This document shows, one piece after another, positions 35,428-57,983 of a DNA stretch of 64,000 bases. A program made the translations under genes and the position numbers. The stretch lies in the NCBI GenBank assembly GCA_003344405.1, contig NOWV01000168.1, positions 62,001 through 126,000 on the forward strand, read 5' to 3'. The notes beneath the pieces were generated by a model. That model had not been told where the DNA came from and searched no databases. It saw only the letters and a list, made by a program, of their open reading frames with translations. Within the stretch, counting starts at the first letter, position 1; the number at the start of each line of letters is the position of its first letter. Source of the stretch: Trichoplax sp. H2. Taxonomy: Eukaryota.

Positions 35428-38400
35428 ATGGCTGCAAGTTTACCGATGGAAAAGGATCCAAAGCAAGCATTAGAAGTTTATCGACAATGGAAAGACCAAG
35501 GCACTAATGAATCATGTTCTATCGGCCAATTAATAACTCAACGCCGTTCTGCAGTTATTTATGAAGATTTTATTCCTATTTGCCAAGATTTACTTGATTT
35601 CTGTCAATTATGTTATAAAAGCTTAACAGATGATTGCCAAATTAATTCAAGTTATTATCAACCGAGAGTCAACAAAATTATTCAATTAATAGAAGAGCTA
35701 TATCGGATTATGCTAAATTTATGCCAAGTAGAGCAAGCCATTCTTCAAATTCAACAGGAAAATTCTGCGGCAGCAATCGATCTACAAGCAGTAGCATTAC
35801 TAAAAGATCACAAAGATACTGATAGCGTTCCGTGGGGTAAGAAAACGTTGAAATATATCATGGATAGAATCTAATTATATTCAGTCGTTTTTACTTTCGT
35901 TTTAGCGATCTTTCCGGAAATTTATGATCCGATGCAATTTTTGTTTTTTGTTACCAATATAGCTGCTTTGATAACTGAGTAAAGGACTAACTAATAATAA
36001 TGCTATTACTCCAATCTTATCAATCAAGTTTTACGATTATAGTTTATTAGGATTATTTAAATACCGAGAAAAGAATTCGATGAGTCTATCTTAATTGTAT
36101 CTCCAACTAAATCGAACTTTATAAAACCCATTTTCTTGATTCGTATATCAGCTTTACATACTAACTTAGAATTAATTTATGTAATGGAATTTCAACGAGA
36201 TAGAAATGATGCAATTCATCATCAACAGTCTAGTATTTATTGATTATGGGACTGTCTAATTTTTATTGATTAACTTTAATGCTGGCCTTTTTTACCCTTT
36301 ATAAGATTGCTCAACAATCTCCCAAAATTCTATCGATCAAAGAACCTTAATCAGAATTAACATAGACTCTTAATTTCCTATATTAAATCCCATATTGTAT
36401 TTTTTGTATGCAAAATTATTGTTGTAAAGTTGTTTAAACTCCTACTTTTAGTTCAAAATTGATTAGCATTGTACTAGTTCTGGCTGATATATTGAAGATA
36501 CAGCGGTAATATAAGTTTCCTGTAGGACTAGAAAAACTATTTTACGAATAGATTAGAGAATATAGATGTGAATGAAAGGTAGGTTGTTAATTTATTCCAT
36601 TAATTTTGAACTTACTTAGCTGATATCCATTTTAATGTAAACGAGTGACTTATCAAATAATAACTTTTTTAAATAGTGAAAATTTTATTTATTAATAAGC
36701 TCAGAGCTATATGGTGATTTATTCCAACCCTTTACAGTATAAATTGAGTAAATGGCTAAGGCATTAAAAGATAGCATAAGAATCCAGAATAGTTCACACA
36801 ATGTCATAAAATTGGTGTCAATATACACTAAAATGATTAACTAAAAAGGATTAAGTTTGCACTTTACTTTTGGTAGGTGTTAAGCTATATAATTTATCAT
36901 CGTTTATCACAAAAATGACTGGTACTAAAGGGAATCTTATGGATTAGCATAAATATCAGGTGGAATTTGTGTCCGATATACTAAAAGAATCCAATCCAAT
37001 CTGGTTCATTTATCACTTTATACATCATATGTGTTTACGCATCGTAGAAATCGATAAAATTTCTCTATTGCTGGCTAGCACAGATTCTAACTAGTAAGGC
37101 TTAAATATCTCCTAAAATTACTGCATATCTGAATAAATTCAGCAGAATTTCCCTATTACAGAGATAGATATAGGATTGAATTGAGTGCACTACTTATAAA
37201 TTACCGACAAAGAATATTCTAATAAAAAATCTACGAAGTTTTTCCTGCTGCCGACATGACACTAGATTAAATCTAATAAGCACTGCTTGAAATCTCAGAG
37301 AGTTAAGGATTGATGGAAATGATATTTGATCACTCACATAGAATATCAAATAATTAGACAAAGTTAAGGATTAATTGATCGTTGATTAATAATTTCATAG
37401 ATATACAACTTTACGTGTATTTTAAAAGGTTAAATTTTGTGTAGATATATCTATTTCCCTCGTTTTATTTATTACTACTTCCGAATAAGTCTAACGGAGC
37501 TTCCTATTACAGATATTGATATAGGACTGAATTTAGTATATTACAATACTTATGAATTACTGATAAGGAATATCGTAAATAAAATCCATAAAGCTTTCCC
37601 ACTGATTACATAGCAATGATGGCATTGGATTAAATCTAGTATGCGTTTCCTGAAATTCTTAACGGTTAAGGGTTGATTGTTCAATAATTATAATTAGACG
37701 AAGTTAAGGATTAAACGATCGTTGATTAATAACCTCCTAGGTGAACAACTTTGTTTTAAAGGTTCAATTTTATGTAGAGCCATTTCACTTCTCTAGTTGC
37801 ATTTACTGCTACTTTATGCTTCAGGCAATAATTGAATAATTACTTAACATTATTAAAAATATTAGAATAGAAAATAAACGGAATAAATGGTAGGTCTTTA
37901 GTTCTAGCATTCGAGTAATGAATCTAATAAAGTTGTAAAGGTATAACATATAATTATAATATGGTTGCAAATTGATTACTCTTTCATGAATTCTGTGATG
38001 ACTATGACAATATTATGCTATAGTCTCCTTAACTATCAGATCTTTCCATAATCTACTATTATTACGGAAGGCTCTAATCTATTGTAGCCTAACTCCTTGT
38101 TAGATATTCTACGCCAATAATTGATATTTTATATTGTTATATACTGCATCTTCGTGGAGCTTTTATATTGTTGGATATCCTGTCATGGGCACCAGGTCAT
38201 CTTAATTACAGTTTTCTGATTGACATAAAGTACATAGAATAATCTATTGCTGTATAAGTACAGATAAATTCCTTTAGGAATATCCCATTAAGCGTTGGAG
38301 ATTATGATAATTTATTATGGTATATAAATTGATGGATAAATATTGCTATCTCTTATGAAGCTAACAATTGCATCCTGATCTACGATATCGATGAAGGTTA

Positions 38401-41400
38401 TGATATTATAGGGATATTATGATGGAGGATATTTAGGGTTTTATGCTATGAGATAGGATCGATTTTATTAATTGATCACTGCTTGAAAAATATCCTCGAT
38501 ACCCTGAATACTATTCTAACTCAATAGTAAATTCAATTTACTCAACTTAAAAGGCATTCTGTATCCATTACGATATTACTGGATTAAGTCAATCTTCTTG
38601 GCTAGAAACTGTCCAACTAGTAAATCGAACTAGTTGCATTAATGAATAGCGTAATACTATCAGAAGAGTATCGACCTACAGAGAAAGTAGGAGATTATAA
38701 AGGCAAATAAATGCCTACTCGATACAGCTTTATTAATCACCATTTCAATTTTAAATGACGTAGATTGTATAGCTGATGGATTCGATATTTATTTTAGCAA
38801 TGAATAGCATGATATTATCAGTACAAATCTATGCATAAGTAGTAGAAATTTAAGGCAAGAAAGTGCATACTCAACACAGCTTTACTTTTCTATCGTCATT
38901 TTAATTTAAAACTGATGGATTCGATATATATATTTAGCCACGGATAGCATGATACTGTTATTGCAGTATCGATCTATGCACAAAGAGTAGATAAATTAAT
39001 TAAGGCAAATAAGTGCATACTCAACGCAGCAATAATAATCTTGATTCTATTTAGGTATAATAGATGAAATTTATCACCATGAAATTGCCGGTAAAACCAT
39101 CAGTTTAGCAGCATCGACATTACCGCCGTTGATCGATACCGTAAGCCAAGAATTAAGCAAAGATGTAGTGAAGAAAATTATTGAAACTATTCAACGATTA
39201 ACTTGGAAAATGGAAGCTGCAGTTGAATGCGAAAACGGCGATAGCCCAGTGATTCATTCCATCATTTTCACGCCAGTTAGGCAACAACAATTAGATTGGG
39301 CTATGCTTCCTGAGCCATCTTGTGGCAGCAGTAGGCAATCTGGTCTACGAAGTAGTTTTCATTTATCATTGCCTTATCCAACGGATGATATTAGCGGAAA
39401 AGGTGATATCCTGACATCGCAGCCACCTTTATTAGATCCAAATCATGTCGCTAATACCGATGGCCTTCCCGATCCAGCAAATTTATCCATCACATCCGAC
39501 GAGAAAAGCTCCAACCATAGCAAGCAAGATACGACTATTCAGCCTCCCAGTGTTGCTATAGCTGATCGATCTACTATTGTAAATCATGATGACGATGATC
39601 GTAATCGATCAACAGATCAAAATGAGACTTTTTCTGACAGTCATCAAGAACAGATACGTAGCTGTCATGATGTCCCATCTGCCACTCGATTACAAGGAAA
39701 TAACGAAGATTTATCAGCTCATATTCTTCCTTGTAACATCAACATTAACAAGAAGAAAAGTTTAGACAAAGTTATCGATACAAAAGAATTGAAATTACCA
39801 CCAGAAAGCGAAGTTGCAGATCCACCTTTAAGCCCTATCTGCCATCCTAGAATCCCTAGTATCATCCTAATGAAACAAAGTTCTAGCTTAGATGTGGTGC
39901 AATCAGTCTCTGGCAATGGCAAAGTATCCAACGAATTCAACATCACTTCCGATGATATAGATAGTAATTCACCGACTTATATCCATAATAGAACCTGTTC
40001 CTTCGATTCTGTTCATGCTAATCATGTCTTGACATTAGCTCGTGATAATTCAATGTCTAAAGTGATGGAGAATAATAACAAGTTGACCTATCGAAAAATT
40101 GGCCGTGAAAAATATTTAACCCTAAGACCGCTATCGGATGTGCGCTCATCGGCAGTCATGACCCAAGAAGATTTGACCAAATTAGGCTTAAAAGTGGACC
40201 TATTAGGACAAGTGGATAGCCAATCGATCGATAACGAGATTAATAAGACTACAACGACGTTAGATATTAATACATCCACTGTTTTTCGACAAAGTTGTGC
40301 CGATATGGTACAATTATTCAGCTCACGGAAGCAATTAAGCCGCGTTAACGATGATGTCGAACCGCCAACAATGAAACGAATGAGTTATCATTCCAGCCAG
40401 GAATTAACTATACCGCTTATTATTCATAAAGATTCTATAGAATCACAGAAAGAAGAAGAGAAAGAGGAAGAGAAAAGCCAAGACAAAGAAGGGAAAAAAA
40501 ATCTACAACTAGAAATTAGTCAGCCTCAATCGGAAGAATCCAAGCTACCTGCTGTTGACCAGGACATGGGCGAATCCCCCAAGCAATTATCGGTTTCATT
40601 ATCGGATAACACGGATAAATTAATTGCCAGTATTTCACAGATACAAGAAAATTTACAAGTCCTAAAACAAGGTAGAATTAGACTTCATTTTTCATTTCTA
40701 TGTTGTGTCGTAATTTAATTTTGCCTACAAGCAATCAGTAGCTGTCAGAAATATTTAGATTAGACAGGATTATAGGATAGTAGCAATCAATGAACCATAC
40801 AGTATTTCGTTGAGAAAGTACCAAATCATATTAGCTCATGGATTATAAATTATTTATTGAACAGATTTATGGATTACTGTTTGCGTAGATTACGTACAAT
40901 TCTCTACCTAGGCCATTTCTAGAATAATGTTATAGAATCCTACACGACTTGGAAGATTCATCATGAATTTGATGTACTGTCCAATATTATTACCATTTTA
41001 ACCCATGATGACAATAACAATCAAAAATCTATCATGGCTGTTCATCTTGCTCTCAAATATTATTTTATATGATTAGATGTGAATTGATTTGCGAACATAT
41101 TACTATAATCCACCCTCTCAATTCAAAATGCCTAATGGAAATGGACTATATCCATTAATTTATTACCTATCATAGACATGCTCTTTAATTTAAACTAAGA
41201 TACCGAGTTATACGCGTACATATTCAGCCAGTATACGATATGGTTATTCAATTCTTATTTTCCGTTATAGCATCAGTTTCTATAATGATCAAATCGAAAT
41301 TGTTGAACGCCATAGTTTAGCAATTTTGATTAACAACAGCTTCATTGTAGCTTTAACCAGGGTAGTAAATGAATATATAGTTCGAATAGAATACCTAAAT

Positions 41401-44400
41401 GATTTGCAATGTTAGTTTCCGCGTTGGTTGAATAGGATATATTTTGAAGTCCGTATATTTCGACCACAATAGTTTACTAATCAAAATTACCATCAACAAC
41501 TTAAATATTGGTTTTAACCTGGATAGGGAATGATATGCATCGAGCCTCGTTGTGTGAGATATAGCTGTGCAATCCTATTTCCAATAATGGTTCGATTTTA
41601 TGATACACAGGGTAATATTATCCAATTAGAATCATCGAGTATGGTAGTTTATTAGCCATAGTAGATAGTAGTTTTATTTATACCAGGACGGTCATCAATC
41701 ATGCTTTGTGATAAAGTAAATGTCGTGACACTTAGGAAACAGAAAATAGTAGAAAATCGAACCTAACTCACTATACTGTCCTCGAGTCTAAATCACAGCG
41801 AGACCGTAAAAATACCTTATTCTTTAGAACGTATAATTCAAAGCTAACAGAAAAGTGCCTACGGAACATTTGCATAGAAATCAGTTTGAAGACAAGTTTA
41901 CTGAGGATTACTAGAATGAAATTAAATGTTTAACTATTTCAACTGCCTTACACTCGTTTAGTGATATAGTTCTAGTATTTTAGCCTATTTCTCTACCAAA
42001 TAAAGCTTACCCTTATCTGCGTTACTTTATTTTAAATGCTTTTAAATTCATTTTATTAATTGATAATGGCTTCAAATATTCATATGAATCTGAATATTAA
42101 TTAAAAATCACATGCGGGCTAATATCAATTAAAGTGGGGTGTAGTTGTATGAACTTTATTTACTAGGAGTATTGGTAATTGAAAATCATCCAATCAATTT
42201 TTTCTACTATTATGTAAACTAGAGTTAACGATAGCCTCTAATTTAGCTGTAACCAAGATACTAAGTTTTTTTTACAATTGATCTAGAATATGAATGTACA
42301 TTTAACGTCTGTAGTGGTAACAGTTTAAAAATAAAGCATTTTTGGCTTGTTGTTGAAATTTTTAGATACTCCTTTGCAATTAAGTGTCACGCCAATATCT
42401 GTACGAAGTATGGGTAACTTTTCCAATATTTTGCAGCGTGCTCTACCTAAAAAAGTTGGCCAATCTGTATTTAAACATCGCTTTATCGTATACGAAATTA
42501 AAGTAACGACAATCTTGCCAGGGGTAAGTTCTACTTTATATTAATTATTATATATTTCTTGCACCCCACCTAACTGGACAGTTAAGATAGTTATAAGGTT
42601 TCCATATAATAAGCTATCAATGAATTGACATTTGTAAATACTGAAGACTACTAGCTGCATTCTTTTATCGCCCTAGTCTATAGCTTTATTATCATCCTAA
42701 CCTTAATTTGTTGGAAAATTTTATTAGAAATAATCGATCGAAACTCAATGACGTAACAATTAATAATTATGAATAATCTAAATAATTGATGATCCCAGCT
42801 ATTAAAATGTATAATGACGAAGATAGCAATCATGACGCCTATATAGAAATACAAATTCGTATTGGATAGGATAGGCTACTCCAACAGAACGGAATTAACA
42901 GTATAGTACCTTTCAACATTCAGTGGATGGAACTAAAGCTATGCTATAAACAGCATTTGTTTGCGGTAGTCATGGATGTTATTCGACATCGTCGTCAGTT
43001 CGTGGGATTTTAATCCAAAACAACAGTGCCATTCGATATATAAAAACCATGATTTAAAAAGTAGTCAAGTTAAGCTGTAGTTTATCGATTTATAATATGA
43101 TTATTTAAAGCAATCAGCGATAAAATAGAAGAATATTTCGTTCCCTTGCTTCTTACAACCGCTGAACAGAGTGTTTAATGGAATTATGGAAAGTATACAG
43201 TAGAATGAATAGAAGCACCGTCGCTTACAAGCGGTAACTAAATAAACAACAGTATTCTACTAAATGAAAGGACCAAATTGTATTTCATAAGATAAGCAGT
43301 GGTCCTAATTTATGTTAATTAAGGATATAATTTATGTACGATGACTCAATGGAGGTAATTAACTAGCATACAAAGCATTGAATATGAGTCATGCTCAATT
43401 AATTCGCCATTAAAGAATCAATATATTGTAAACATAATAGTCTTTAAATGTCCATAAAGTACTTTTAAGCGAAGCCATTGCTTGTACAGTACTTTAGACG
43501 AGGATTGATGAAATCTAGTCTCTATATTAGCCATACAAAAGTTCTACTGTGCTCGTTATCAACATTATTCTTATTTATTAAAGCGGTATCATCCTTACAT
43601 AACACAGAAAATTTTCTTTTTGAGATCATTTGTACCATTTTTTAACCCCTTTGATTGCACGTTATGATTTCCAAATTCATAAATTGAGTACAATTTAGCA
43701 GAATAATATAAATTTCAATATCATCAGTATAATCTCAACAATAACAAATCAGTTTTGTATTCGGTGAGGTAAATAGTGAAAGAGTCGATAGGATACTAGA
43801 GTAAAAAAAGCTCCATCCGTTGTCAATTTGTCATGGTTACAGAGAAAATCAGATAGGAGCTGGATAGTTGATAACATTTTAAATTTAGTTCAATCTTAAA
43901 ATCTTGAGCTATATCTAGATAGAATGAAGCGGAAATTGAATTGATTAACTTATTAATGCTATCGCTATGCAATATACCATCGCATAGTATGTAATAGCAA
44001 GAAAAAAGTAACTTGACTAATCGATCATCTCAATCGATTTATGATTACGTCTGACTTTATCTCCACGATCGTCATTAATTTAATATATGCTATCGCGTTG
44101 ACTATCTACATCTGCCGCTTGTTATAAGTTCAATTGAATCTTTCTTTAATAGATGTAATGAGAAGAATCTTAGGCTGCAGTAATAAAGTTACGACAATAG
44201 ATTACTTATTGCATAACAATATCTCGTGACCAACATCTGTCAATAATTAAGTAGTCCGTATCGCGTCTACTGACAAGTTTACCAGTCTGCTGACATAGAT
44301 ACCGTAATGGAATGCTATGGATTCCGAATAACATTAAAATAGTTGAAAATCAAATCAACATTGCAGATGACTATTTCGATTCTCTAAATTGACTTGTAAT

Positions 44401-47400
44401 GAGTAACATTTATTGACAAGCAAGCAGTAATTTAGATGAAGATTGGTGATAGAGTATGATAAAAGAATAGCTGATGAGTCATCAGTAGAGATTATCCTAC
44501 TTGTATTAGCGATCTTAATGTTCATGATGGTGATTGATTAATGAGTCAGCTAGTGGTAATTACTAATCATTACAGTGATTCAGGGTGATTATAATTTAAA
44601 ATGAAGCAATTTAATTAATCTAACCGATGTTGATTGATAAATTTACTGTATTTGATGAGGTGAAAATGAGTCAGAGGGAAGCCTTCCTTTATCATTTGTT
44701 CCCTACAAAAGTGGAATAATGTATCATCCTCTACATAAACTTTTATGAAAGGTTTCATCTTAAAACAAATCAAAGCTTTTATATGTTGATTATTGATCTT
44801 ACAAATTAATTAAAATCGAAGTAGACTACTTCAGATCTCTCTAAAAAATCGCTCTCTTACTGGTATAAATCTGTTATATAGCGCGTTAGCATCAGTAATC
44901 AGGATATTTCTATTCAACGACCAAAATTAATTATACTGTATGAAGGTTGTTATATAGTAGTATTAGCAGTTAGCCATCCTACTGAACCTTGGGCATATCT
45001 ATTTCATGGCGAAAAGACTGGTCTGGATTTGTACACCTTCTGCAGATTACCTATAATAATATCTATGTCATTGGCAATTTTAAAGCCAAATTTATTTCTG
45101 TCAATTTAAGATAGTTTGTCTACCGTGTACTGTATACCTCGTCCTATACTCATGGAACATAATCGATCAAGAATATTTTTCATGCTGCTAAGCATGAGCA
45201 CCCTTCCATCCGTTAATAATATTATTTGGTCCTGTTTATGTCATCAGATACAAGATATGGTATGTCTAACATTGCCATAAAATGAGTTTCAGTGAGCTTT
45301 ATACTTGTATTTAGCTCTGCTGTCCTATACATAGCTATTCATAACAGTATTAGAAGTAGGACTTTTATGATTTACTAGTGCAAACTCCCGTCGCTTTGCT
45401 GACGGTTTACGATAATGTGCTCATTTAACAGATAGTATTACCATTTGATAGACCTGTCAAATGTTATCATCAGTATTTCAGTTGTTGAACTCCATTTTTA
45501 GACAAGTACGGTAAGAAATATTTTGAGTTAGGTTATGGATTTATGCCGGTTTAAATGCCTACATTATAATTCAATTAGGCTTTCTGTTTATTCGCAACGA
45601 CGAAAGATTTTCTGTGTATGCGTAATCTTCTATCGGACGTATCGAAGATAAAATGCATCGATATCCTAAGTTTAAATTTTTATTAGAATTTCGAACTTCA
45701 TTGCAATTTAACAGTAAAAATGCTTGACATACCATTCTATAAAATTGACAGATAGCTCTTAATAGCCGAAGTACACGTAAAGTTCTGTAGCGTTTATTAG
45801 CTTACTAAGTTAATACCGCTGCTTTTTCAATTTTTCATCCGGGTAAAGAAGGGATCGAAAAGTTCCTGTTAGTATTTTGTTGCCATGGTCGAGTAGAGAA
45901 GCATGATGACGTATAATTAGAATCACGTAGACATACATTGTTAGACAATTCCTTTCAAAAGTGTAAATGCTATACAGTATATTAAACATACGACAGAAGT
46001 TTTATTCTGTTTTATTGCAATCTATTTGCAGATAAAGTAGAAACACCTATTGGCTGATATAGGTATTTCCTCTTAATTATTTTTAGCAAATCTTCGACTA
46101 TACGATAGTTTGTAAGGAGGCATTTACATCAAGTATACAAAGTACAGTTTATACAGCAAGATCTAATTTATACGCCTATATTTAGACCAAATTTTGGGAT
46201 TATTTTTGTTTGCAATCATCACCTATACCGTGCGTGCATTTAGATCATATTAACGTTATTTTAGTGTTTCATTTTGCAGTGTGAGTCTGCAATAATGGAA
46301 GAGTTATCTGGGTAATTTAATATAATCGTTCTATTTGCACTACATTTGCATATTGAGTCTATATACATATCATATCATGATTATTTTTCCTCTATATAAT
46401 TTGCAATACGTAATAACTATATATAAAAATTTGGTCTGAATAACATCCATGAATAGTATATAATATGGATACATATCGCTCGTATTCCACATATTAGTGT
46501 ATCAAATTCTATATATGATATCTCCTACGTGGCAGAATTCTATACAAATACTTCAGCTCTATATTTATGGTACAATATAATCAATGCATGCTATTTCTGG
46601 ATCATTGCGCGGAGATATTTATATCGACTAAATATTAAGACCTGATACATATATTTTAGTATTTTTGGGGCTTATGGATTGTATTTAGTTTATACTTATA
46701 TCATATTTTTCCTATTTATATACGACGCTTACGTATAGTGCGCGTTGAACTACTGTTCATTACTATTTGCTCTATTTCGGTATTCAAAATACAGCAATAG
46801 TATAGGATAGTTATCAGTTGTCACCATGATCATCTAATTTAAAGTACAAAGTATGAAATTAAGACGGGTCGCCTATAAGAGTATAGCAAACACGTTTGAT
46901 TGATATTTATGAAATCGAACCTTGTACAGTATAGTGATCGACACCGGATAATGAATCAATTTTTCAGATACTGCAGGTTCCTAGAGTAAATGATCCATTT
47001 TAGAACTCTTCAGACAGACTTTTGGATGGGCAAACCCAAATTTCTCCTCATCTTGCTGAAAGTCCTGTTTTACCCTAGTTACAGCCTTCATTACTATTTA
47101 GATTTGCTAAGTATAATTCTGTTATTCGGGACCTTGGCTTACAGAGTACATGGCATCGGTTAGAGGAATTTTTGGATTGAGTAGTTCCTGACTGATTACA
47201 GTATACAACACATCTAGTTACCTAGCATTTTTTATTGTCGGTATGTTATCCGATATACAGTGCTACGTTATATACTAATAAATATCCCGGCGAACTTAGG
47301 TTTGGATAATTTCCTATAATTGATAGTATTATGCACTATTAAGTGTCTGTACGCCCAATTTGATTGTTACAATTTACAATTTATTATTTTTTAATACAAG

Positions 47401-50400
47401 GTCGATTTCTCGCTCGTTCTACTTCATATACTATACTTGTACCTTTTACTTGATAATATCTTATTTATCATTTTAATATACAGATTATTCTTGTTGATTC
47501 TAACATGGGAACAATATAGCATGGTAAATTTATTAAATCAATCACATCACAAAAGTTTGATTGATTAAAAGCTAAACATAGACAAGTAAACACTAGCTTG
47601 CCTGTATGATTATCCTTAAAATTGAATAGACCCGTAAATAACATTTTCTCTTGAAAAGAATTCAATATCCTATGTCTTTGACTAGGATATTGGACTAATA
47701 TCGTAATGCTAAAGACTTTACAGCCAGAGTTGTGGCGTAATCACTTTTCGTCATGAGAACCAATAGAAAATGACCATATCCGAACTCTATTGCAACAGAG
47801 TGTAGTATCATGCTTCTTTATTCTGACTGTAGAATAATTATTGCGATGGCTACCGCGTTAACTGCTGATCTTATTACAACACAATGCAGGAATAGCTAAA
47901 CGTAGATAAATGAAAGAGAAGAACTGTGGTCAGGCATTATTATTCCACAATACTCTTAATACAAGTTGTATTTTCTTGCCGTTTAATGGCTCTGATGCTA
48001 GACAAATATTGTGCTGGTAGTAATCATTACGTTTAATCAACGGCCATAGTAGGGTAATGATAACAACTAAGACAAATATAGACAATCAATAACAACGATA
48101 TTAAAACTATGCAGTTATTGGAAGATATTAGTCCTATAGACTAGCCAATACTAGACTGGCTATTTCATTCAGTGAAATGCAAAAGACTTTAAATCTTAAG
48201 CATGAATATTGTATCCAGACGATATGAAAACAGACAAATATAGGGCTAGATGAACCAATAGAAAATCATTTGAGAAACGTTTTCTCCTATTTAAGACATT
48301 GATTTATCATTTCAATCTAGGCCCAAAGTCTATCCTATACTATAATAAGAAAATTCAAGCAAATTTGCAAGTTGTACGATAAACTATCCAAAATTGACCA
48401 TGAAGGTAAGAATCGTCATCAGAAAAATCAATGTCTCTTCACTATCAAGATTACAAGTAGGACTATAATTGTTGTTGAATTATGTTGTCAATATCGTCGT
48501 GTACAATCTTCTCTAATTATATAATATTCATGATGTCTGCTTTGTCATTATAAAACTTTGTCTCTCTATTAATCGATATTAGCATCAATGCTTTACTGTT
48601 ATGATATGAATAAATATAGACAACGATTAAAAGAATGCAAACTACTATATATTTAAGGAAAATCGTCTGTCCATTTTAGTCTATCTAATTGGTTATAGTA
48701 ATCTTGCTTTTCTAAAAAGTAGCATAAACTCCAGGGTATTGTAAAACTATTTCTGTTACAAATTAAAATTGCCTACAAGAGTAGTCATTAAGTACGACTG
48801 CTACAAGGATTATTGCCGTTCGTTCTATTATTCCTACCCCCTTCCCGTAAAAAAGAAATTATCAGCTACTAATCAAGAATCATCATGTCGTTCGATACAG
48901 GGCCGCTACCAAGTAAGCCAATTAAGCGATTTTTCAGCAAAGACAAGCAAAAGCAACTGCAAAAGGTATAAAATTGTATTAGTTTAAAATCGATTCAATG
49001 TTAAAAGTTTGTCACTTTATGCTAGTATATCAGCTATAGCTATTTTTCTCTTTTATTCAACTATATATAAATTGACAGTATTTTGATTTATTGGCTCTTA
49101 ATTTACTGATGCCAATTTAGTCTCACGAATAGAACTTTTTAATAAAGATTAAACTATTCTAAGCGATAGGTATTGATAATCATTATGCACTTGTAGCCTT
49201 CATTTTTTATTGCCTAAGTGGATATACGTAAAACTCTGGCAATCTGGAGTAGTTTGGAATGACTAGAATTAATCCTAGTCTTTATGTGCTTGAGCTCTTG
49301 CCTTTTTTTCCATTTTGGCCTGAATAGATTACAGCTACGATAATTTAGAGTACTTTTGAACGATAAATGTTGTTCATTATAGTTATAGTTTATTAGTCTA
49401 CACCTTCTAGCTGCCAATTTTTAAACGGATATAAAAAGTTGCAATAATCTATGGGACGGAAACTTTTTAACGTTAACATCGGCATTATGATATAAAATTC
49501 AGTCCGATGTTTGATATTTTCATTTTTCAGCTATCTGCTCGTAATATTACATGACTGGATACTAAATTAAAAATTAATCATCAGTCTTTAACATCAAATG
49601 AGCCCTATTAATTTTCATTCAATCAGTCTTATTGAATTGAGTAGATAATTTTTATTCTCAATACTTGGTGTTTTGAACTTGTTTTTTTCTAATATAATTG
49701 AGAAAATACATCAATCTTGTTTAAAATTTGGAAATAAATTTTCTTCAAGACATTATCTAGGAGTGGAATTAAAAATAGAAGTTTAAACTAGTCATTTTAA
49801 TATTCTGATTCTATATTCAATTAGGTTGAAGGCGTCTTCAAATTTGTTACCTCCAACCCGAAACTTCGAACTAGTGATTGCGTAGTCGAATTTCTAATGC
49901 CAGATCAACAAGCAGACTGTATGTTTGAAATAGAAAATCTTTCCATCTTTGTATATTTTCTTGATCTATGGCTGTATAAAAGTAGCTGTCTAGCTCATCA
50001 TAGATAATGGTCTAATGTTTCTCTACTTTAACGATTTGATACCATAATAAGTTACATTTTTTAATATAAAATTTCCCATTAGGTTCTTATGACGAAGCTA
50101 ATTTAGAACATCGTGCATCATCGGCTGTGGATTCATGCAATGTAAGCTTTATCTTATATTTTTAATTTAAAAGTTATGATTCCTTCAAAGTGTACAGAAT
50201 GATAAATAGGGTTAACGCGTAATTTTATTTTCTTACCATAAAACTCTGACTGAAATTATGACCTATTTCCATTTAACGATGTATAGCTTAATGTATTGTA
50301 ATTTAATTTTAAAACAAAATTTTACCGATGCCGTTTAATAGATGATTGTAGAGGATAAAAGCTTTCATTTTTAGTAGTCATGTACCTGATTAGCTTATTG

Positions 50401-53400
50401 TATTAGATTTAAAGTCATATTTATTCCAATGCTACATATCCATACTCTCTTTTTCTTGCTAGTATATTGAAGAAGTACAGTTTTAATTATAACTGGTTAT
50501 GAGCCAGTAGCCATTTCTAGACTTGTATCTATCGGAGATAAATAGAGTAAATTGTCAGCAAAGCCGTCAATTCGATGCTAGTATTTCCAGAATTTCTCTA
50601 CATTCTTGACGTATATCCTCTAATTTACTAGCTTCCTTTGTATCGTTATTTAATTCTTAAAAATTTTATGCTATATTAACTAGATCATATTTATACTTTT
50701 AGAGCATAACTCCGTAATTGATGTTCGGATATTAGTATAGGCTTATCTCGTTGTAGTCTCTATTTCTAATAAACCAATGTCAGTCTAATCTGAATGCTAA
50801 TACATTATAGATGCAATTTCAAATTTATACATTGGTTTATTCTTTCCTAGTATTTTTTTATTTCTTTAACTCCTAATTTTTTATTTTACCTATATTGTAT
50901 TTATAAGGCATTCTAATGCTTTATTTCCTGCTAGCCAGGACAACGCGTTTTCTGTTCGTAAATATTAAATTTTTTTTTGATATCGGCGATTAGATTACTC
51001 ATGCTTATCAAAAAGCTTTATTAAATGTTGCGGCTTCCGTAAATATGCGATCACCGTCTTCCTCTCCAAGTAAGTTGTTAAGCAATAACTATCACTATAA
51101 AGTACTAGTTCGGTAAAATTTTCACTCACTTAATATGAAGAATAAAGATTTTACTGAATTAGTACTTATTAACATAATAAAGAAGTCTACTTACCGATGA
51201 GCTTTTATTTATAATATTGTTATTAAATGGATATTAATTTCTTTCGTGTGTAGTTTACGATAGTTATCAACATAGCAATAGAAAGAAAGTAGGATTTCGA
51301 AGGAGTCTCTTATTAAGATAAGAAGACTTTCTTCTGAATTTCTAACAAGAGGGGCTATAATAAAGACGATAGATTAATCTGGTTTTTAATTAGTTTTTCT
51401 ATCATCGTAGTGATTATAATATCTACCTGTAATAATTATCTTTTCAATAAGAATAAGCTTGCGCAAGAGAAAATTAAATCTACAAATTTAAAAAAATAAT
51501 AAATATAATTAAGCACTAAGATAGGTTCATTAATTAAAATCGTAGGCTTTTTATTCAGCTTCAACACATTTTCATGCACGTTGCTTTTGCTTAGACTTTT
51601 TAACACATGAGAATAGTCTTATTTAGGTATACCTATATCACACTCGAAGCTGTAATATTATCATTGTATATTTAGGAAATTAGAGTTGCTGATTTTACAC
51701 TAAACTACGGTAGTACTAAAAAATGACTATATTCAATCACAACGTATCGCCTAGATTTGATCGGTCCAATAGATAAGCATAAGATATGCTTAAAGCTTTA
51801 GTTTTTTAAAGTGCAACTGATTGATATATTTTTACTCATAACATAATGTTAATTAATTAATGATTTTGTTTTTTAATAAATCACGTAAATACCTTGCCAT
51901 ATATGGAAAGACAGAGATTCCAAGATGAAATTGATATTAAAGTATCGATAATTTTAATTACATCCATTATTCGTTTGTAGACTATAACTCACTCACTGAT
52001 ATGTAAATTAACGATATGAGCAAATTCAAGTTACCCAGGAGCCACTATAAATGCGTCTTGGAAAAGAAGTATACCTAGTAAAACTATCGATCATAGGAAA
52101 CAATCATCCATATTGTTGAAAACTAATTTATAATAGATTTTGGGTAATTAATCTCGAAGGAGTCCCTTATTTTTGGATAATTCTCATGTATGAGCATTCT
52201 TAAAATTTTCACATGCAAATTTTACACCTCTGACAGAAACTAGTAGAATAGAGTTTTACACCTGAGTATTGTTCGATGACATTAAGTAAATTATATAATG
52301 GGTAACTTAATCCTATATGAGCTAGTTATGGTTTTAATTATTTAACGATGGGATATTAAAAATAATCACTAAAGAATAATACTGAAATCTAAATATGAAA
52401 GCAATATTTTACTGTAAAAAAGTGATATACGATGTTCATAGTAATAGTTAAATTTAGACAGATAGATATAAATTATCAATGATGATGATACCAATAAAGA
52501 AATTGTGTTGATGATTAATAAAGTTAATACGATGATAACAGCAACGACAACAATAGTAATGATACGTGATATGATGATGGATTAGTATAGATAATTGGCC
52601 GTGTGTCTGATATAAAATTTTATCACAATGAGCTATATTGATATTATTTTAATTTTATAATCTTGTATCTATTATTAGATATTAATTCTTGTTGTTTTTA
52701 CTCCAATACAAAAATATCAAAATATAGGACAATCACCGATTATTTCCCAAAGATTCTTTACACGTCGAGGTTCAGCCACTCCTAAAGCTACTACTGCGAA
52801 AGAAAATCAAGATGTTGTCTTTAAAGAAGGTAAATAGCAGTAAACCAGAAAATGCTCAATAGTAATTTTATATTTCAATCTTGATTTCAATACAAGTATG
52901 TTCGGCGTACTGTGAAAGATTAAAGTCAAAGTTTTTGATTAGGATAAATACGACTTCAGTAAAAATTATTATTTTTTATGTTTATTATTGTGATTTGATG
53001 TGATCTATTAGTCCTATATTTCTAAAAATGATTATATGCAAATATAAAAAAAGAAATGCAAGTAAAACAAAATTGATAAATATCATTTTATTTAACCAGA
53101 GGATAAACCAACTATGATTCTAACATGGAGGAAAGATAAATATATTGTAGCAGCTGGAACTATCGAAAAATTAGTTGAACAATTGGCCTGTGAGGACAGT
53201 GCAGGTAAAATGTGATAAAAGATTAATGCTTTACTGTACCAGTTATTAATTTCCAATATTGAAAATAGGAGAAGTAATAACTTACAATAAATAGAATTAA
53301 AACCTTGTTATACTGTGAGCAATTGTAAATTATCGTGCATTGAAATAAATATGCCAAAAATTATCTTCTGTTGTTTTATGTAGACGTCGGCTATGTTAAA

Positions 53401-56400
53401 GCTTTCCTTCTTGGCTATCGACACTTTGCTAAACCGGAAGCAGTACTACAAATGCTGCTATCTCGATATCTTTAATATACTATGTATGAATTATGGATTA
53501 CTTGCATAAATATAACCACAGCATTAATTAATATGTAGCTAGAGTTGAGTTTGTGTTAGCTTATTGAAAATTATACCCAGGTCGAAATTATTTGGAAGAC
53601 AACTACAATATTAGAATTCGATAAATGAAAGATGATTAAAGATATTATTGCTCAGACTTTGAAACCTACATCAATTACAGCGGAATGAAATATGAAGTAA
53701 TTTGGTAGAACTCTAGCACTTTTGTCCTTTCTTAGAGATACTTATAATGTATAGTGTTATTTCCTTCCAATTACTAATTTAATAATTGGCTAAGCTAGAG
53801 CACGTAAACTTTATTCTTATCCTATAATATGTTTCTAATGAATAACTTAATTTCCTATATTTTATCATTAGATATTTTACAAGTAATAATAGTAAATAAT
53901 CCATCATTGACTGCAATGATCTTTAGCGAGTAAAAACAAATTTATTGTTCTTAACTGTAACTACATTTAATGTCATGTTGCATTATGATGCAACGCAAGA
54001 AGAGCTTGAATACGTCGAGAAATGGGGATTAGTCATTAGATTAAGGTAAGAAAATTAGCAAAGACTAAACTTCATAAAATTTTCTTGCTGTCTTGACAAC
54101 AATCTATCTCCAATGGAATTGATCACATGGAAGGAATTATCTTTTATAATATAAATCTCTAAAAATACACTGTACTAGTATCTCAAGAGAATGCCACTGT
54201 TGCTTGTTAGATTAGTGTTATAAATTCTTTGATGCTCAAGATTTAAGTATATTATTAAGTCTATCAAGTTATAAAAGTTAATATACTATTCCAACTAGGA
54301 CTATCAATACCTTGATGCAATGGATGGAAAGATGTTGGTGGGATTTTCAGGGAAACGAGTCTATGGTTAGTAATAAATCTACATCTGATCCTATTAAATA
54401 TTTTCTTGTGTAAGAATACAGAGCTTAAGATGCATACTAAGCTTAATTTAAAAAGTGTCATAATTTAAAGAATTTAGGGGATTTATAATGATTCTAATTA
54501 TTTAAAATCCATGCTTATATAAATTTAAACATATTACAGTTAAAGCGAGTAGATGACTTCGTTGAAACTTTACTGGTTTCTGATGCTGCGTTTCACAATG
54601 CTGCCAAAGGTATTGCCGATTTAAAGAGTAAAAAGCTCGCAAGCGGTAATAATTCAGAAAATTCATCTGCAATCTGGTATGGCTCATCAACACAATCGAA
54701 ATTAACCAATATAAAAGATATTAAAAAAATATGTATAATGCAAGTACCTGCGCAGCAAATTGCAGAACAGGTTATTAGAATTCTATTCTTCAATTTTCTG
54801 TTGATAAAGAAATAGTTACACTTAACTCAAAATAGGACCTGTAAAATTTTCCTTTCGTTTTATAGGTATATATTAGTTTAATTATGCGTATACTTCTAGT
54901 AACGAGGTACATCGTAAAATACTCTCAGTTTCTTAACTTACTCATTTGTTTACTCTGGCTAGCTAACTCTGATAGATTTGGAAATATTAAGATCAATCGG
55001 CCCAAATGAAGTCTTATGTCATCTATGGGGATCGAAATCAGGTAAAATATTTTATTTCTTTTTAATCTATTCAATTAGCATTCATAATGTATCATTAATT
55101 GGAATGCTAATATTATAAGCACAGTTCTACGAAATGGTAGTAGTGTATAGCAATTTCATGAATTATTTAAAGGTCTATGGATTAACCGGTTAATATATAA
55201 TATTTAGTATGTAGAGATGATAAAGACAAGGCTGAAATTGCTGGCAATTTGAATGCCTATATCAAGCGATGGAATACAGTTTGTTATTGGGTCGGAACTG
55301 AAATTTGTCGCACTTTAGATTGTCGAGGACGTGCTCAGGCTATGGAGAAATTTATTGAAATAGCAAAGGTAACGATAACTTTATTGCTTCGTGGCTCATT
55401 AAAACTATCAAAAAATTTTTACTAAATAATGTTAAAAATTGTTTCCGATATATTAGCATTGTAAAATAATTCGCAACTACAGTACAATGGCTAGTATAGT
55501 TGGAGGTCTTAACATCCATCCGATAAGATCATTAAAGAAATCCTGGGAGGTTAGCTTATTATTATACGTAATATTCCTTTTCCTAATTTTTCATTTATAT
55601 GTATATATATATTTATACATTTATAAAAGAATTCGAAATAATGTTCCATGCATGATATCTACATCTTGTCATTTGCACTATGAATATAGTTCAATTTTTG
55701 ATATTATTCTGTAATTTACGCCAATCTTAGCAACTTATTGCTCTGCTATTGTAATTTTACTTACGCATCTTATGATTGATTTATGTTTTTTTGTAGTGTG
55801 TCGGCCATAAGTATGTTAAATTATTGAATGAAATGGAAGATTTTATGAAGCCTGATCGAAATTATATCAGTTATCGTAAAGTCTTGGCTGATATCCCAAC
55901 CAGCTGTCCATGCATTCCATTTTTTGGTAATGCAAACAGCTAGAATTTATATTCAATTAATTACTTAGCTTGCATTTATTTAGGATAATATTATAATCTC
56001 GTTATATTTATAACTGATTTAAGATTCATCCTTATTGCTTTAATAGGTGTTTTCATCAAAGATCTAACTTTTCTTAATGACGGCAACCCTAAAGTTTTAG
56101 CTAATGGATTGTATAACTTTACCAAGATTAGAGATATCAGTAATAAGGTTAGACTAATCAAAAATGGGTATATTTTGATATATAACTGGAAACTATCTAC
56201 TAACCGAACATCAGCCTTTTTAGATATCATTCTTAATTCTATTACTGTTATGGTGCTTTACTATGCACCTAGTATTATGTTTCTAATTTTAGAAACGTCT
56301 CGGCCATTTATCATCTCAGACTATGATATTAACAATACGCATTTATCTATTACTTTTTATAAAATATTTAGATTAACGAACTAGAGCGTTATCAACGTTC

Positions 56401-56715
56401 TGCTTATCAAGTATCGCCGAATCCTAAGATATTTTTTGGATTAAAAAAATTACAAATACTATCTGAGAAACAGTAAGTAATTAGGGAATATCTATTTTCT
56501 ATCCAAAATTACTATCTATCATAGTCAAAATAGATTATTACATTTAAAATTGTGTAGCATAAGCTGCAATACATTACCTATCCACAGAATCATCTATTGG
56601 ATGATTAGTTATCATTCATACTGTTACTTATTGATATATATTCTTTACTTGGTAATATTGTAGGATATATCAGCAATCTTTGAAGCTTGAACAGCGTCGC
56701 AAATCTATACATTAA
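35428..56715 (+). CDS. Ras-family guanine nucleotide exchange factor with PX-like, REM and CDC25 domains, ~1315 aa
   Basis: 21 phase-compatible exons: 35428-35836, 39055-40671, 42366-42523, 48321-48405, 48901-48965, 49825-49918, 50083-50141, 50994-51069, 52728-52829, 53100-53204, 53384-53465, 53965-54045, 54299-54365, 54540-54770, 54963-55041, 55208-55368, 55457-55549, 55797-55926, 56047-56147, 56372-56472, 56664-56715 (3948 nt). REM: VAAGTIEKLVEQL, YVKAFLLGYRHF, IRLRTINTLMQWMERCWWDF. CDC25: IAEQLTLID, WNTVCYWVGTEI, RNYSTMASIVGGL, CIPFFGVFIKDLTFLNDGNP, NFTKIR. The GEF part is very secure; joining of the 5' exons rests on splice signals and phase. Confidence 0.85.
37149..37778. repeat. Diverged ~300 bp tandem duplication in RasGEF intron
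   Basis: ~37149-37446 and ~37501-37778 share CCTATTACAGA..GATATAGGA, GATTAAATCTA and TAATTAGAC(A/G)AAGTTAAGGATTAA..GATCGTTGATTAATAA in the same order. Confidence 0.8.
38690..39030. repeat. ~140-150 bp tandem repeat (2.3 copies) just upstream of the large exon's acceptor
   Basis: AAGGCAA.AA.TGC.TACTC..CAGC near 38700, 38852 and 39002; CTGATGGATTCGATAT...TTTAGC...ATAGCATGATA at 38772 and 38912. Confidence 0.8.
42366..49918 (+). other. Four small exons encoding a PX (Phox homology)-like domain of the RasGEF
   Basis: Joined translation: FKHRFIVYEIKVTTILPG|AQSLSYTIIRKFKQICKLYDKLSKIDHEG|PLPSKPIKRFFSKDKQKQLQK|VEGVFKFVTSNPKLRTSDCVVEFLMP. This follows the PX pattern YxIxV, (V/I)xRR(Y/F)xxFxxLxxxL, PxLPxK, ...PxLxxSxxVxxFL. 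Confidence 0.7.
43341..44673. promoter_or_regulatory. Intronic cluster of AP-1/bZIP sites (ATGASTCA x5), candidate enhancer
   Basis: ATGACTCA 43341, ATGAGTCAT 43384, ATGAGTCAT 44474 (inside the odd palindrome CTGATGAGTCATCAG 44471-44485), ATGAGTCAGC 44541, ATGAGTCA 44666. Confidence 0.45.
53466..53964 (+). other. U12-type (minor spliceosome) AT-AC intron, phase 2, 499 nt
   Basis: 5' site ATATCTTT at 53466; branch site TTCTTAAC at 53948-53955; 3' end CTAC at 53964. Splicing gives MLLSR/FNVMLHYDATQEELEYVEKWGLVIRLR; unspliced read-through hits TAA within three codons. Confidence 0.88.
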
Positions 56716-57983
56716 TGGCTTCATTATTTGAGGATCCTTTACAGGTTTAATTTAAAGGATTTTTAAGATTATAATGTCTAATATGGACTATAGAATCAGC
56801 ACCGGTGAAAGATTTATTTACTATAAAGTAACCTTTGAATTTAACAATATCATTTGTATTGTTTAAGGGTATTTATCGTTACACCGTTAGTAACTGAGAT
56901 TTGATATCAGATTTCGTATAATAGTTAGTTGATATAAAACGATTTCATCATTTTTAAATAAACAGCTGTTATTTACTAACTTTGATAGGGTAACGGGTGA
57001 TTAAGCGTAACCCTTGACTTTAATATTGATTTTATAGTATTAAACATGTAATTCGTGTAGATGTAACTTAATTAACGCAGTAATATAAGTTCACATCAGA
57101 AATAAAATAAAGAGTATTATACTAGACTATTCTTGTGATTTCTTGAATGCGAGAGTTAATAAGAGAAATTGAGCTACAGCTGGTTGATAATTAATCGAGA
57201 CAGTTTATGTTGTGGTATGATAGTCAGGACGCGATAAGCATGGAATATTTTACCATCAGTAGAAGGGAAACGAACGATATCGTCGATCTTGTGCATGGAA
57301 CATTAGTACACTTTTACGAAAAGACTTTAAATATTATCATCAATCTTGTAACATAAATTGAGAAATCGAGGTCATTCTATGCACGTACAATTAACCAATC
57401 TATTGGCTTCAGTGTTGAATAAGGTATAACTAGCCACGACAGCATGATGTGATCTAAGTTAGGAATTATTAACATCAATCTTCTAAGGTAACATATATCG
57501 TATCAGATCATTGTGATTCATTTTGTTGCATTAGCTTTTACATTATGTCTGCAATATTGCATTAAATTCCGTATGTGAGTAACTCATTCAAATAGTATAA
57601 AGGTGCAGTGCTCCAGATGAATGAAATACCGTGATGTCATCAGTTCTACGACATAAATCGTAACATGGACGGATGAACTTGGTCAGTCTATCGAATATAT
57701 TTCTACTTGAAATGATTTACATCCTTACCATCACTTGATCCTTCTAGAAGCATGAATTAACTAGCTATATATAATTATGCTGTTGATCAATATGTTGATT
57801 TTTAATTAAGTTTGAAATCTAGTGGTTTACGATTAATATCAGTTCGCGTCTATTTACAGTATGTGAGTTTGCATAACATTAACGTATTTTATCGACGCAA
57901 TCTCTTTTATCAACTTGTGCTATAATTCATTTCGCCGATTCAAGTTAAAAAAACATACTTGTCTTTTAGACAGTCTTTTAATA

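What the first reader, a model, noticed from the sequence alone, without database searches (positions are those of the whole stretch)
35428..56715. RasGEF carrying a PX-like domain: unusual PX-REM-CDC25 architecture
Seen: four small exons (42366-49918), mostly missing from the ORF track, splice in phase into a complete PX-like fold upstream of clear REM and CDC25 domains. Established: the familiar animal RasGEF families (SOS, RasGRF, RasGRP, C3G, Epac, PDZ-GEF, RalGDS, RalGPS, RasGEF1, PLC-epsilon) use DH/PH, C1, cNMP, RA, PDZ or similar modules. I know of none with a PX domain, which usually binds phosphoinositides on endosomes. Inference: this may be an undescribed or lineage-restricted, endomembrane-targeted Ras/Rap activator.
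Basis: partly seen in the sequence, partly recalled or inferred. Interest (0 to 1): 0.8.

Follow-up and report, generated by a model that had tools for sequence, protein, structure and literature searches.

The report
Trichoplax RasGEF with PX-like domain
This is one real, expressed 20-exon gene of the simple animal Trichoplax that joins a probable membrane-lipid-binding PX-like module to a Ras-activating enzyme, and public gene models cut it short.

Summary
The core observation holds. RNA contigs from three runs show the three junctions inside the PX-like region exactly as predicted. They also link that region to the REM and CDC25 exons in one open frame.

Three details are wrong:
- The step 49918->53100 does not exist. 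Three more coding exons lie between.
- The last coding exon starts near 56558, with the stop at 56606-56608, not 56715.
- The protein is 1281 aa, not 1315.

The first 728 aa match Trichoplax sp. H2 protein TrispH2_009514 exactly. That 775-aa public model, like T. adhaerens TRIADDRAFT_55068, stops after the first PX exon with an exon that no displayed RNA joint supports.

REM and CDC25 are confirmed. PX identity is only weakly supported. A two-species profile of the first PX exon hits sorting nexin 3 at E 0.22-0.31. A PX-type motif pair forms across the exon 4/5 junction. No Pfam or fold test of the joined domain could be run.

Seven literature searches found no described PX-RasGEF. I rate it a new variant of a known kind, of moderate interest.

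The parts
35428..35836 (+). Exon 1, with the start codon. Encodes aa 1-137, a predicted helical N-terminal region.
   Evidence: An in-frame stop lies upstream. The sequence is identical to public model P0028. The donor is GTAAGA. RNA contigs of X7, X9 and X1 carry a loose end before 39054 that reads the last 30 nt of this exon.
39055..40671 (+). Exon 2, aa 137-676: the end of the N-terminal region, then a long low-complexity stretch with conserved islands.
   Evidence: RNA contigs cover it, and the joint 40671->42366 stands in 3 of 3 RNA runs. It is 54% identical over 540 columns to P0036, a fragment of a second placozoan-like genome. Islands reach 57-93% identity (aa 399-608), against 13-40% at aa 249-398.
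42366..42523 (+). PX-like exon 1 of 4 (gene exon 3), aa 676-728: the putative strands beta1-beta2.
   Evidence: Both of its joints stand in 3 of 3 RNA runs. It is 74% identical to ortholog fragment P0029, which ends its exon at the same place. A profile of the two hits sorting nexin 3 chains at E 0.22-0.31, aligned to the start of that PX domain.
48321..48405 (+). PX-like exon 2 of 4 (gene exon 4), aa 729-757. Carries the motif RKF..I..L...L.
   Evidence: Joints 42523->48321 and 48405->48901 stand in 3 of 3 RNA runs. The motif was found by regex. It has no PDB hit on its own.
48901..48965 (+). PX-like exon 3 of 4 (gene exon 5), aa 757-778. Carries PLPSK.
   Evidence: Its joints stand in 3 of 3 RNA runs. 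The motif lies 7 residues after the exon 4 motif, which is true only in the spliced product. It has no PDB hit on its own.
49825..49918 (+). PX-like exon 4 of 4 (gene exon 6), aa 779-810: the putative C-terminal helices.
   Evidence: Joint 48965->49825 stands in 3 of 3 RNA runs. Joint 49918->50083 is shown for X1 and X9, with a T>C difference at 49918 (table 5c). It has no PDB hit on its own.
50083..50141 (+).
   Evidence: RNA joints 49918->50083 (X1, X9) and 50141->50994 (3 of 3 RNA runs). Borders are AG/GT and the frame is open.
50994..51069 (+).
   Evidence: RNA joints 50141->50994 and 51069->52728 stand in 3 of 3 RNA runs.
52728..52829 (+).
   Evidence: RNA joints 51069->52728 and 52829->53100 stand in 3 of 3 RNA runs. 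X1 record 6 (671 nt) runs from exon 4 through this exon into exon 10.
53100..54365 (+). REM (RasGEF_N) region in four exons: 53100-53204, 53384-53465, 53965-54045 and 54299-54365.
   Evidence: Pfam RasGEF_N matches single ORF pieces: 26.4 bits on profile positions 20-50 and 17.5 bits on 75-101, both below the 28.3-bit cut-off. The joined model aligns to the Pfam-verified REM-CDC25 units of P0013 at E 3.5e-52. The shown RNA joints stand in 3 of 3 RNA runs, except 53204->53384, which is shown only for X7.
53466..53964 (+). AT-AC intron inside the REM region, of apparent U12 type.
   Evidence: The joint 53465->53965 with ends AT..AC stands in 3 of 3 RNA runs. The 5' end reads ATATCTTT, and TTCTTAAC lies about 10 nt before the 3' end. 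The consensus I compare these with is recalled.
54540..54770 (+). Exon 14: the end of REM, a linker and the start of CDC25.
   Evidence: Its joints stand in 3 of 3 RNA runs. It aligns to P0006.
54963..56147 (+). CDC25 (RasGEF) catalytic domain in five exons: 54963-55041, 55208-55368, 55457-55549, 55797-55926 and 56047-56147.
   Evidence: Pfam RasGEF matches five collinear pieces at 14.2, 39.8, 28.5, 38.8 and 25.4 bits, covering profile positions 6-181 of 181. Four of these exceed the 23.1-bit cut-off. Joints stand in 3 of 3 RNA runs. The donor at 56147 follows from 231 nt covered in the bin 55677-56343 in all three runs.
56558..56608 (+). Coding part of the last exon, 16 codons plus stop TAG at 56606-56608. 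The 3' UTR runs beyond 57000.
Evidence: Inferred. The acceptor is TGTAG|CAT in phase 0. The lengths of X9 record 26 and X7 record 20 fit. The joint itself was not among the rows displayed.
42870..43013 (+). The terminal exon of the public 775-aa models, which I judge spurious; it lies inside intron 3.
   Evidence: The last 47 aa of P0028 equal this ORF. No displayed RNA joint uses it. Only a low-depth unspliced contig covers it (X1 record 3, depth 6.5).

Best explanation
A single 20-exon gene of Trichoplax encodes a 1281-aa guanine-nucleotide exchange factor for a Ras-family GTPase. The CDS runs from 35428 to 56608 and the 3' UTR extends past 57000. The window is identical to Trichoplax sp. 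H2 over the first 728 aa.

Order of parts:
- a predicted helical N-terminal region (aa 1 to about 225);
- a long, mostly low-complexity stretch with islands conserved between placozoans;
- a PX-like module of about 125 aa (about aa 680-806), built from four small exons and resembling sorting nexin 3;
- an 80-aa Ser/Pro/Arg-rich linker;
- a REM domain and a CDC25 catalytic domain.

Shown: the exon structure, the single spliced transcript chain, the open frame, and the REM-CDC25 identity. Also shown: the public models stop after the first PX exon.

Inferred: the PX-like module places the enzyme on a phosphoinositide-bearing membrane, most simply endosomal. There the REM-supported CDC25 domain opens the nucleotide pocket of a Ras, Rap or Ral-type GTPase. 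By recalled alignment, the usual PI3P-contacting residues are only partly kept. R-K-F stands where R-R-Y is usual. The Lys of PLPSK is kept. The helix Arg is apparently not kept. Lipid specificity, or lipid binding at all, is therefore open.
For: Transcript:
- Fifteen displayed GT..AG or AT..AC joints stand in RNA contigs of X7, X9 and X1, and none stand in the DNA-like run X2.
- X1 record 1 runs exon 2 -> 3 -> 30 nt of exon 4. X1 record 6 runs exon 4 -> 10 and on (exons 4-8 sum to 379 nt, matching record positions 1-380). A third contig runs from exon 11 to the 3' end.
- The joined CDS is 3846 nt with no internal stop.

GEF module:
- Pfam RasGEF matches five collinear exons, four above the cut-off, and RasGEF_N matches two pieces.
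- The joined model aa 900-1269 aligns to the REM-CDC25 units of Filamoeba proteins P0013/P0030 at E 3.5e-52, and to Fonticula P0010 at 2.8e-49.

PX-like module:
- The profile of exon 3 plus its ortholog fragment hits sorting nexin 3 in 4 of the 10 rows listed, at E 0.22-0.31. The match falls at the N-terminal start of that PX domain.
- RKF..I..L...L, then 7 residues, then PLPSK spans the exon 4/5 junction. The pair occurs in 0 of 20000 shuffles of the protein.

Constraint:
- Of 16 exonic differences examined, all 5 that fall in PX, REM or CDC25 exons are synonymous. All 6 non-synonymous ones lie in linkers or low-complexity parts.
- Exon 3 is 74% identical in a second placozoan-like genome.
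Against: - Pfam finds no PX (or anything else) on any single PX exon at E<=1, nor on the 775-aa public model at E<=10.
- phmmer of exons 3, 4, 5 and 6 alone against PDB gives no PX hit at E<=10.
- The sorting nexin 3 hits are sub-significant, come from one protein in four constructs, and rank below a chloroplast ribosome factor at E 0.045.
- The motif test was written after seeing the sequence, uses motifs recalled from memory, and the proline motif is PxPxK rather than the usual PxxPxK.
- The Atlas gave no usable hit for exon 3.
- The joined domain could not be given to Pfam or to structure prediction, so no fold evidence exists.
- RNA evidence is from assembled contigs that overlap by only about 28-30 nt at two breaks. 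No single contig spans the whole gene.
- The last junction is inferred from depth arithmetic.
- Substrate and localisation are untested.
Confidence: 0.72

Rival explanations
1. One gene and a real RasGEF, but the 125-aa region is not a PX domain. It would be another small fold, or a placozoan-specific module that resembles sorting nexin 3 by chance.
For: No Pfam hit on any piece or on P0028. No PDB hit for exons 4, 5 and 6. The sorting nexin 3 hits are E 0.22-0.31 only and are outranked by an unrelated protein. A roughly 25-residue insert lies before the conserved strand. The Atlas gave nothing.
Against: The only recurring family among the weak PDB hits is the one predicted in advance, and it is aligned at the right end of the domain. 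The two motifs lie in the right order and spacing, and only after splicing. The exons are under constraint.
Confidence: 0.2
2. Two adjacent genes: an upstream gene ending with the PX-like domain and a separate REM-CDC25 gene. On this reading the assembler joined them in the contigs.
For: Public models end upstream. Contigs are broken in exon 4 and exon 11, and the tool warns that a contig across two genes shows no single transcript.
Against: Six consecutive spliced joints carry one contig (X1 record 6) from PX exon 4 into the first REM exons. The same joints stand in X7 and X9, which belong to another study. The frame stays open across all of them with no stop after the PX region. The terminal exon of the public models has no displayed RNA joint.
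Confidence: 0.03
3. A true PX fold that has lost lipid binding and serves as a protein-binding or autoinhibitory module of the GEF.
For: By recalled alignment, two of the four usual PI3P-contacting positions are changed (K for the second Arg, no Arg in the later helix). The proline motif is one residue short.
Against: The residue assignment is by eye and from memory. No alignment to a PX profile could be computed, and no assay exists.
Confidence: 0.3

Closest known systems
Sorting nexin 3 type PX domain (Pfam PF00787)
   Same: The first PX-like exon aligns to the first strands of sorting nexin 3. A basic-basic-aromatic motif followed by a proline-lysine motif comes next, in the usual order. 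The length of about 125 aa is similar.
   Different: No profile-level match. A long insert lies before the conserved strand. The motif is PxPxK, not PxxPxK. The lipid-contact residues are only partly kept (recalled). Sorting nexin 3 is a small stand-alone protein, whereas this region sits inside a 1281-aa GEF.
REM-CDC25 exchange factors of protists (Filamoeba P0013/P0030, Fonticula alba P0010, Arcella P0022)
   Same: They give the best full-length alignments of the joined REM-CDC25 module, at E 3.5e-52 and 2.8e-49. Both Pfam domains are present in them.
   Different: Pfam finds no PX in any of the 11 longest hits scanned. Identity over the CDC25 exon is only 37-53%. They are not orthologs in any demonstrable sense.
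Animal RasGEF families with solved structures (RalGPS1, Epac2/RAPGEF4, RasGRF1, yeast Cdc25)
   Same: They share the CDC25 catalytic core. Single exons hit RalGPS1 (7.2e-5), Epac2 (1e-4), RasGRF1 (2.2e-4) and yeast Cdc25 (0.04).
   Different: No one family is consistently nearest. None of these carries a PX domain (recalled). This gene shows no DH/PH, C1, cNMP, PDZ or RA hit on the pieces scanned.
PX domains fused to other small-GTPase regulators, such as the PX-RhoGAP proteins ARHGAP32/33 (recalled, not tested)
   Same: The logic is the same: a phosphoinositide-reading PX module placed N-terminal to a catalytic regulator of a small GTPase.
   Different: Those are GAPs for Rho-family proteins. 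Here the catalytic part is a Ras-family exchange factor. No sequence comparison was made.

Membership tests
RasGEF / CDC25 homology domain (PF00617) | Profile match over the whole catalytic domain | tested here: met
   Five collinear exon pieces cover profile positions 6-181 of 181, four above the 23.1-bit cut-off. The joined model aligns over about 200 aa to Pfam-verified RasGEF proteins, for example P0021 at 4.8e-46.
RasGEF_N / REM (PF00618) | Profile match N-terminal to the CDC25 domain | tested here: met
   Two pieces score 26.4 and 17.5 bits, each below the 28.3-bit cut-off on its own, on profile positions 20-50 and 75-101. The joined model aa 900-1269 aligns through the REM plus CDC25 of P0013, whose REM lies at 144-248 by Pfam, at E 3.5e-52.
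RasGEF | Exchange activity on a Ras-family GTPase | not testable with these tools
   This needs a biochemical assay.
PX domain (PF00787) | Pfam profile match at or above the gathering score | tested here: inconclusive
   No hit on single exons (21-52 aa each) or on P0028, which holds only the first exon of the region. The joined region could not be submitted.
PX domain (PF00787) | Similarity to a solved PX domain | tested here: inconclusive
   The exon 3 profile hits sorting nexin 3 at E 0.22-0.31 in 4 of 10 rows. Exons 4, 5 and 6 alone give no hit.
PX domain (PF00787) | Basic-basic-aromatic motif, then helix, then the proline-rich PxxPxK loop (motifs recalled) | tested here: inconclusive
   RKF..I..L...L and PLPSK are present, 7 residues apart, in 0 of 20000 shuffles. 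The loop is PxPxK, and the test was designed after seeing the sequence.
PX domain (PF00787) | Three-stranded sheet followed by a helical subdomain | not testable with these tools
   Structure prediction accepts only unjoined window sequence, and the domain is split over four exons.
PX domain (PF00787) | Phosphoinositide binding | not testable with these tools
   This needs lipid-binding assays. By recalled alignment, the contact residues are only partly kept.
Named animal RasGEF families (SOS, RasGRF, RasGRP, C3G, Epac, PDZ-GEF, RalGDS, RalGPS, RasGEF1, PLC-epsilon) | Closest CDC25 relatives, and accessory domains typical of the family | tested here: not met
   The best matches differ from exon to exon. 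A full HMMER scan of 1.84 billion representatives gives no hit above 53% identity to the CDC25 exon, and the named ones are protist proteins. No accessory-domain Pfam hit was found. No CDC25 tree was built.

The most novel reading that the evidence does not exclude
Placozoans, and perhaps other early-branching animals, keep a RasGEF family of their own. In it a sorting-nexin-like PX domain reads endosomal phosphoinositides and switches on a Ras/Rap-type GTPase on endomembranes. No described RasGEF family has this architecture, and it is invisible in public proteomes because the gene models are truncated.
Probability: 0.35. Interest if true: 0.6.

Novelty: new variant of a known kind. Interest (0 to 1): 0.45.

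Why it matters
Ras-family exchange factors are placed on membranes by a small set of known modules (PH, C1, cNMP, PDZ, RA). A PX-coupled one would add a direct phosphoinositide or endosome input to Ras/Rap signalling in one of the simplest animals. It would also inform how these pathways diversified before bilaterians.

There is a practical point too. Both public Trichoplax models of this locus are truncated after the first PX exon, and the REM-CDC25 part is missing from the protein collections searched. Domain censuses of placozoan signalling therefore miss this GEF. The corrected 20-exon model, with its AT-AC intron, is directly usable for re-annotation.

Tried and rejected
PX-like region:
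- Pfam on single PX exons gave nothing at E<=1.
- Pfam on P0028 and P0029 gave nothing at E<=10.
- phmmer of exons 3, 4, 5 and 6 against PDB gave no PX hit.
- The ESM Atlas gave no usable hit for exon 1 or exon 3.

Searches for relatives:
- A word-based search with the CDC25 exon found 28 candidates, none significant.
- The N-terminal 225 aa found only P0028 itself and one placozoan-like fragment.
- I scanned metagenome contigs for a spliced copy or a relative. The exon 2 protein gave 592 pattern matches, none confirmed by tblastn. A 39-nt exon 4 pattern gave 0 matches.

Structure:
- AlphaFold2 of the N-terminal 224 aa without an alignment gave mean pLDDT 42.9, too poor for a fold search, so none was run.

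Unavailable:
- No whole genome is held for this window.

Readings rejected:
It predicts 251 nt covered in the bin 55677-56343 and 337 nt in the next bin for X1, against 231 and 440 observed.
- The two-gene reading (see rivals).

Intron repeat at 45373-45447:
- No tRNA, no Rfam family and no second copy in the window.

Not run:
- I did not use complex prediction on the four exon pieces. It would not name the fold, and it would have been a way round the bar on joined sequence.
Full report
**What the window is.** The region has about 30% G+C and split coding exons. The first PX-like exon is 100% identical to the 775-aa 'hypothetical protein TrispH2_009514 [Trichoplax sp. H2]' (P0028). My joined model matches P0028 at all of its first 728 residues. 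It differs at 6 positions from the T. adhaerens copy TRIADDRAFT_55068 (P0035). The locus is therefore placozoan. No whole genome is held for it.

**Checking the observation.** The four small exons have GT..AG borders and join in phase. I laid contigs of four public runs on 37001-57000. X7 and X9 are on record as RNA. X1 behaves as RNA, covering exons only and carrying joints. X2 behaves as DNA, with even depth of about 66-245 in all bins but the one holding the repeat at 45373-45447, and no splice joint.

The contigs go 49918->50083 (shown for X1 and X9), then 50141->50994, 51069->52728 and 52829->53100. This adds three coding exons that form a Ser/Pro/Arg-rich linker. Downstream joints define exons through 55926->56047. 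Upstream, 40671->42366 links the large exon 2. A loose end before 39054 reads the last 30 nt of exon 1.

**One gene or two.** X1 record 1 covers exon 2, exon 3 and 30 nt of exon 4. X1 record 6 (671 nt) starts at exon 4 (exons 4-8 sum to 379 nt, and exon 9 sits at record positions 381-480) and runs into exons 10-11. A third contig (depth 54.9) runs from the end of exon 11 to the 3' end. X7 and X9, from another study, show the same joints. The joined CDS is 3846 nt, giving 1281 codons and a stop, with no internal stop. No single contig spans the whole gene, and contigs overlap by only about 28-30 nt at two breaks. Even so, a spliced, frame-preserving chain from the PX-like exons into REM leaves very little room for two genes.

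**The 3' end.** The last junction was not among the joints displayed (10 were not shown). In the bin 55677-56343 the covered length is 230.5, 231.5 and 230.8 nt in X7, X9 and X1. In the bin 56344-57000, X1 covers 440 nt. A last exon starting at 56558 predicts 443 nt, and one starting at 56664 predicts 337 nt. Contig lengths agree. The acceptor at 56558 is in phase 0 and gives 16 codons and TAG at 56606-56608. The stop at 56715 is therefore not supported.

**Public annotation.** P0028 and P0035 consist of exons 1-3 plus 47 aa that equal the window ORF 42870-43013, which lies inside intron 3. No displayed RNA joint uses that ORF. Searches with the CDC25 exon found no Trichoplax protein. The word search gave 28 candidates, none significant. 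A full HMMER scan of 1.84 billion representatives gave 27 hits, the best at 46-53% identity. In these collections the REM-CDC25 part is thus unannotated. A model that skips this one exon cannot be excluded.

**REM and CDC25.** Pfam RasGEF matches five collinear exon pieces at 14.2, 39.8, 28.5, 38.8 and 25.4 bits, covering profile positions 6-181 of 181. RasGEF_N matches two pieces at 26.4 and 17.5 bits. In the script box the joined model aligns over aa 900-1269 to each of the two REM-CDC25 units of P0013 and P0030 (P0030 is from Filamoeba) at E 3.5e-52 and 5.3e-50. It also aligns to Fonticula alba P0010 at 2.8e-49 and to unnamed fragments. Pfam confirms both domains in those proteins. Single exons hit RalGPS1, Epac2, RasGRF1 and yeast Cdc25 in PDB, with no consistent favourite. 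The module is a complete but divergent REM-CDC25 unit that I cannot place in a named animal family. No tree was built.

**The PX question.** This is the weak point. The domain is split over exons of 52, 28, 21 and 31 aa, and the tools take only unjoined sequence. Pfam and structure prediction on the joined region were therefore impossible.
- On their own the exons give no Pfam hit, no PX hit in PDB and no Atlas hit.
- A second placozoan-like genome supplies an ortholog of exon 3 (P0029, 74% identical, same exon end). The two-sequence profile hits sorting nexin 3 in 4 of the 10 rows listed, at E 0.22-0.31. The match aligns to residues 44-63 of the full-length protein, the first strands of its PX domain. 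It ranks behind an unrelated chloroplast factor at E 0.045.
- In the joined protein, RKF..I..L...L (exon 4) is followed after 7 residues by PLPSK (exon 5). This pair occurs in 0 of 20000 shuffles. The first motif alone occurs in 42 of 20000 shuffles, and once elsewhere in the six-frame translation of the window.
- The motifs are recalled, the test is post hoc, and the loop is PxPxK rather than PxxPxK.
- Taken together I put the PX fold at about 0.8. By recalled alignment the PI3P-contact residues are only partly kept, so lipid binding is less certain than the fold.

**Constraint.** I examined 16 exonic differences between runs and window (14 from the displayed rows of table 3, with 159 rows not shown, and 2 read from table 5c). 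Ten are synonymous. All 5 in PX, REM or CDC25 exons are synonymous. The 6 non-synonymous ones lie in exon 2, just after the PX region, or in the REM-CDC25 linker. Exon 2 is 54% identical to P0036 over 540 columns. Islands reach 57-93% (aa 399-608) and 70-83% (aa 159-248), against 13-40% at aa 249-398.

**N-terminal region.** There is no Pfam hit and no Atlas hit. AlphaFold2 without an alignment predicts mostly helices, but at mean pLDDT 42.9. Its nature is unknown.

**Literature.** Seven full-text searches found no paper describing a PX-RasGEF or this gene. They combined 'PX domain', 'phox homology', 'sorting nexin', 'PF00787' and 'PF00617' with RasGEF, 'RasGEF domain' or 'CDC25 homology', and also tried Trichoplax with RasGEF and the locus tag. 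In two papers I read only the passages found. There the terms co-occur in a reference list or in unrelated sentences. For the others I saw only the listings. InterPro architectures, the decisive check for prior cataloguing, are not available here.

**Verdict.** This is a real, expressed, mis-annotated placozoan gene for a RasGEF that very probably carries a sorting-nexin-like PX module upstream of REM-CDC25. It is a new variant of a known kind. The targeting mechanism is inferred, not shown.

Noticed in passing
window 53466-53964: An AT-AC intron inside the REM region. Its 5' end is ATATCTTT and TTCTTAAC lies about 10 nt before the 3' AC, so it looks like a U12-type (minor spliceosome) intron. 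The joint stands in 3 of 3 RNA runs. The consensus I compare it with is recalled.
   Followed up: partly
window 45373-45447 (intron 3): A roughly 75-nt element of very high copy number. Depth is about 35000 in its bin in the DNA-like run X2, against about 80 around it, and it is also high in the RNA runs. Many different loose ends lie on both sides. It is not a tRNA, matches no Rfam family, and has only one copy in the window. It is probably a short interspersed or miniature transposable element.
   Followed up: partly
window 42870-43013: The public 775-aa models of both Trichoplax species (TrispH2_009514 and TRIADDRAFT_55068) end with this intronic ORF instead of continuing to exon 4. The locus needs re-annotation.
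   Followed up: yes
window 46648 and 51956: The DNA-like run X2 has a contig that goes back from 51956 to 46648, with one letter between (table 5c). Summed X2 depth roughly doubles from about 47.7 kb to the end of the laid stretch. The window has no shared repeat at the two places. This could be a structural variant, two laid haplotypes or an assembly artefact. It is unexplained.
   Followed up: partly
window 39937 (exon 2): Run X9 lacks 6 nt here. This is an in-frame length difference in the low-complexity part of the protein (table 4).
   Followed up: no
window 7712-8050: An ORF piece with a Mob1/phocein family match (E 9.3e-6, 26.2 bits, just under the 27-bit cut-off). It is probably an exon of a neighbouring MOB-family gene.
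   Followed up: no
window 58283-58717 and 63367-63747: Tandem repeats with periods of 198 nt (2.2 copies) and 134 or 91 nt (about 2 copies), downstream of the gene. The second lies in a stretch richer in G+C and produces repeated ORF motifs on the minus strand.
   Followed up: no
P0002 (unnamed ENA fragment): A G+C-rich eukaryote-like genomic fragment. Its CDC25 exon ends at the same position as window exon 16 (after ...AK), which suggests a conserved intron position in a distant relative.
   Followed up: no
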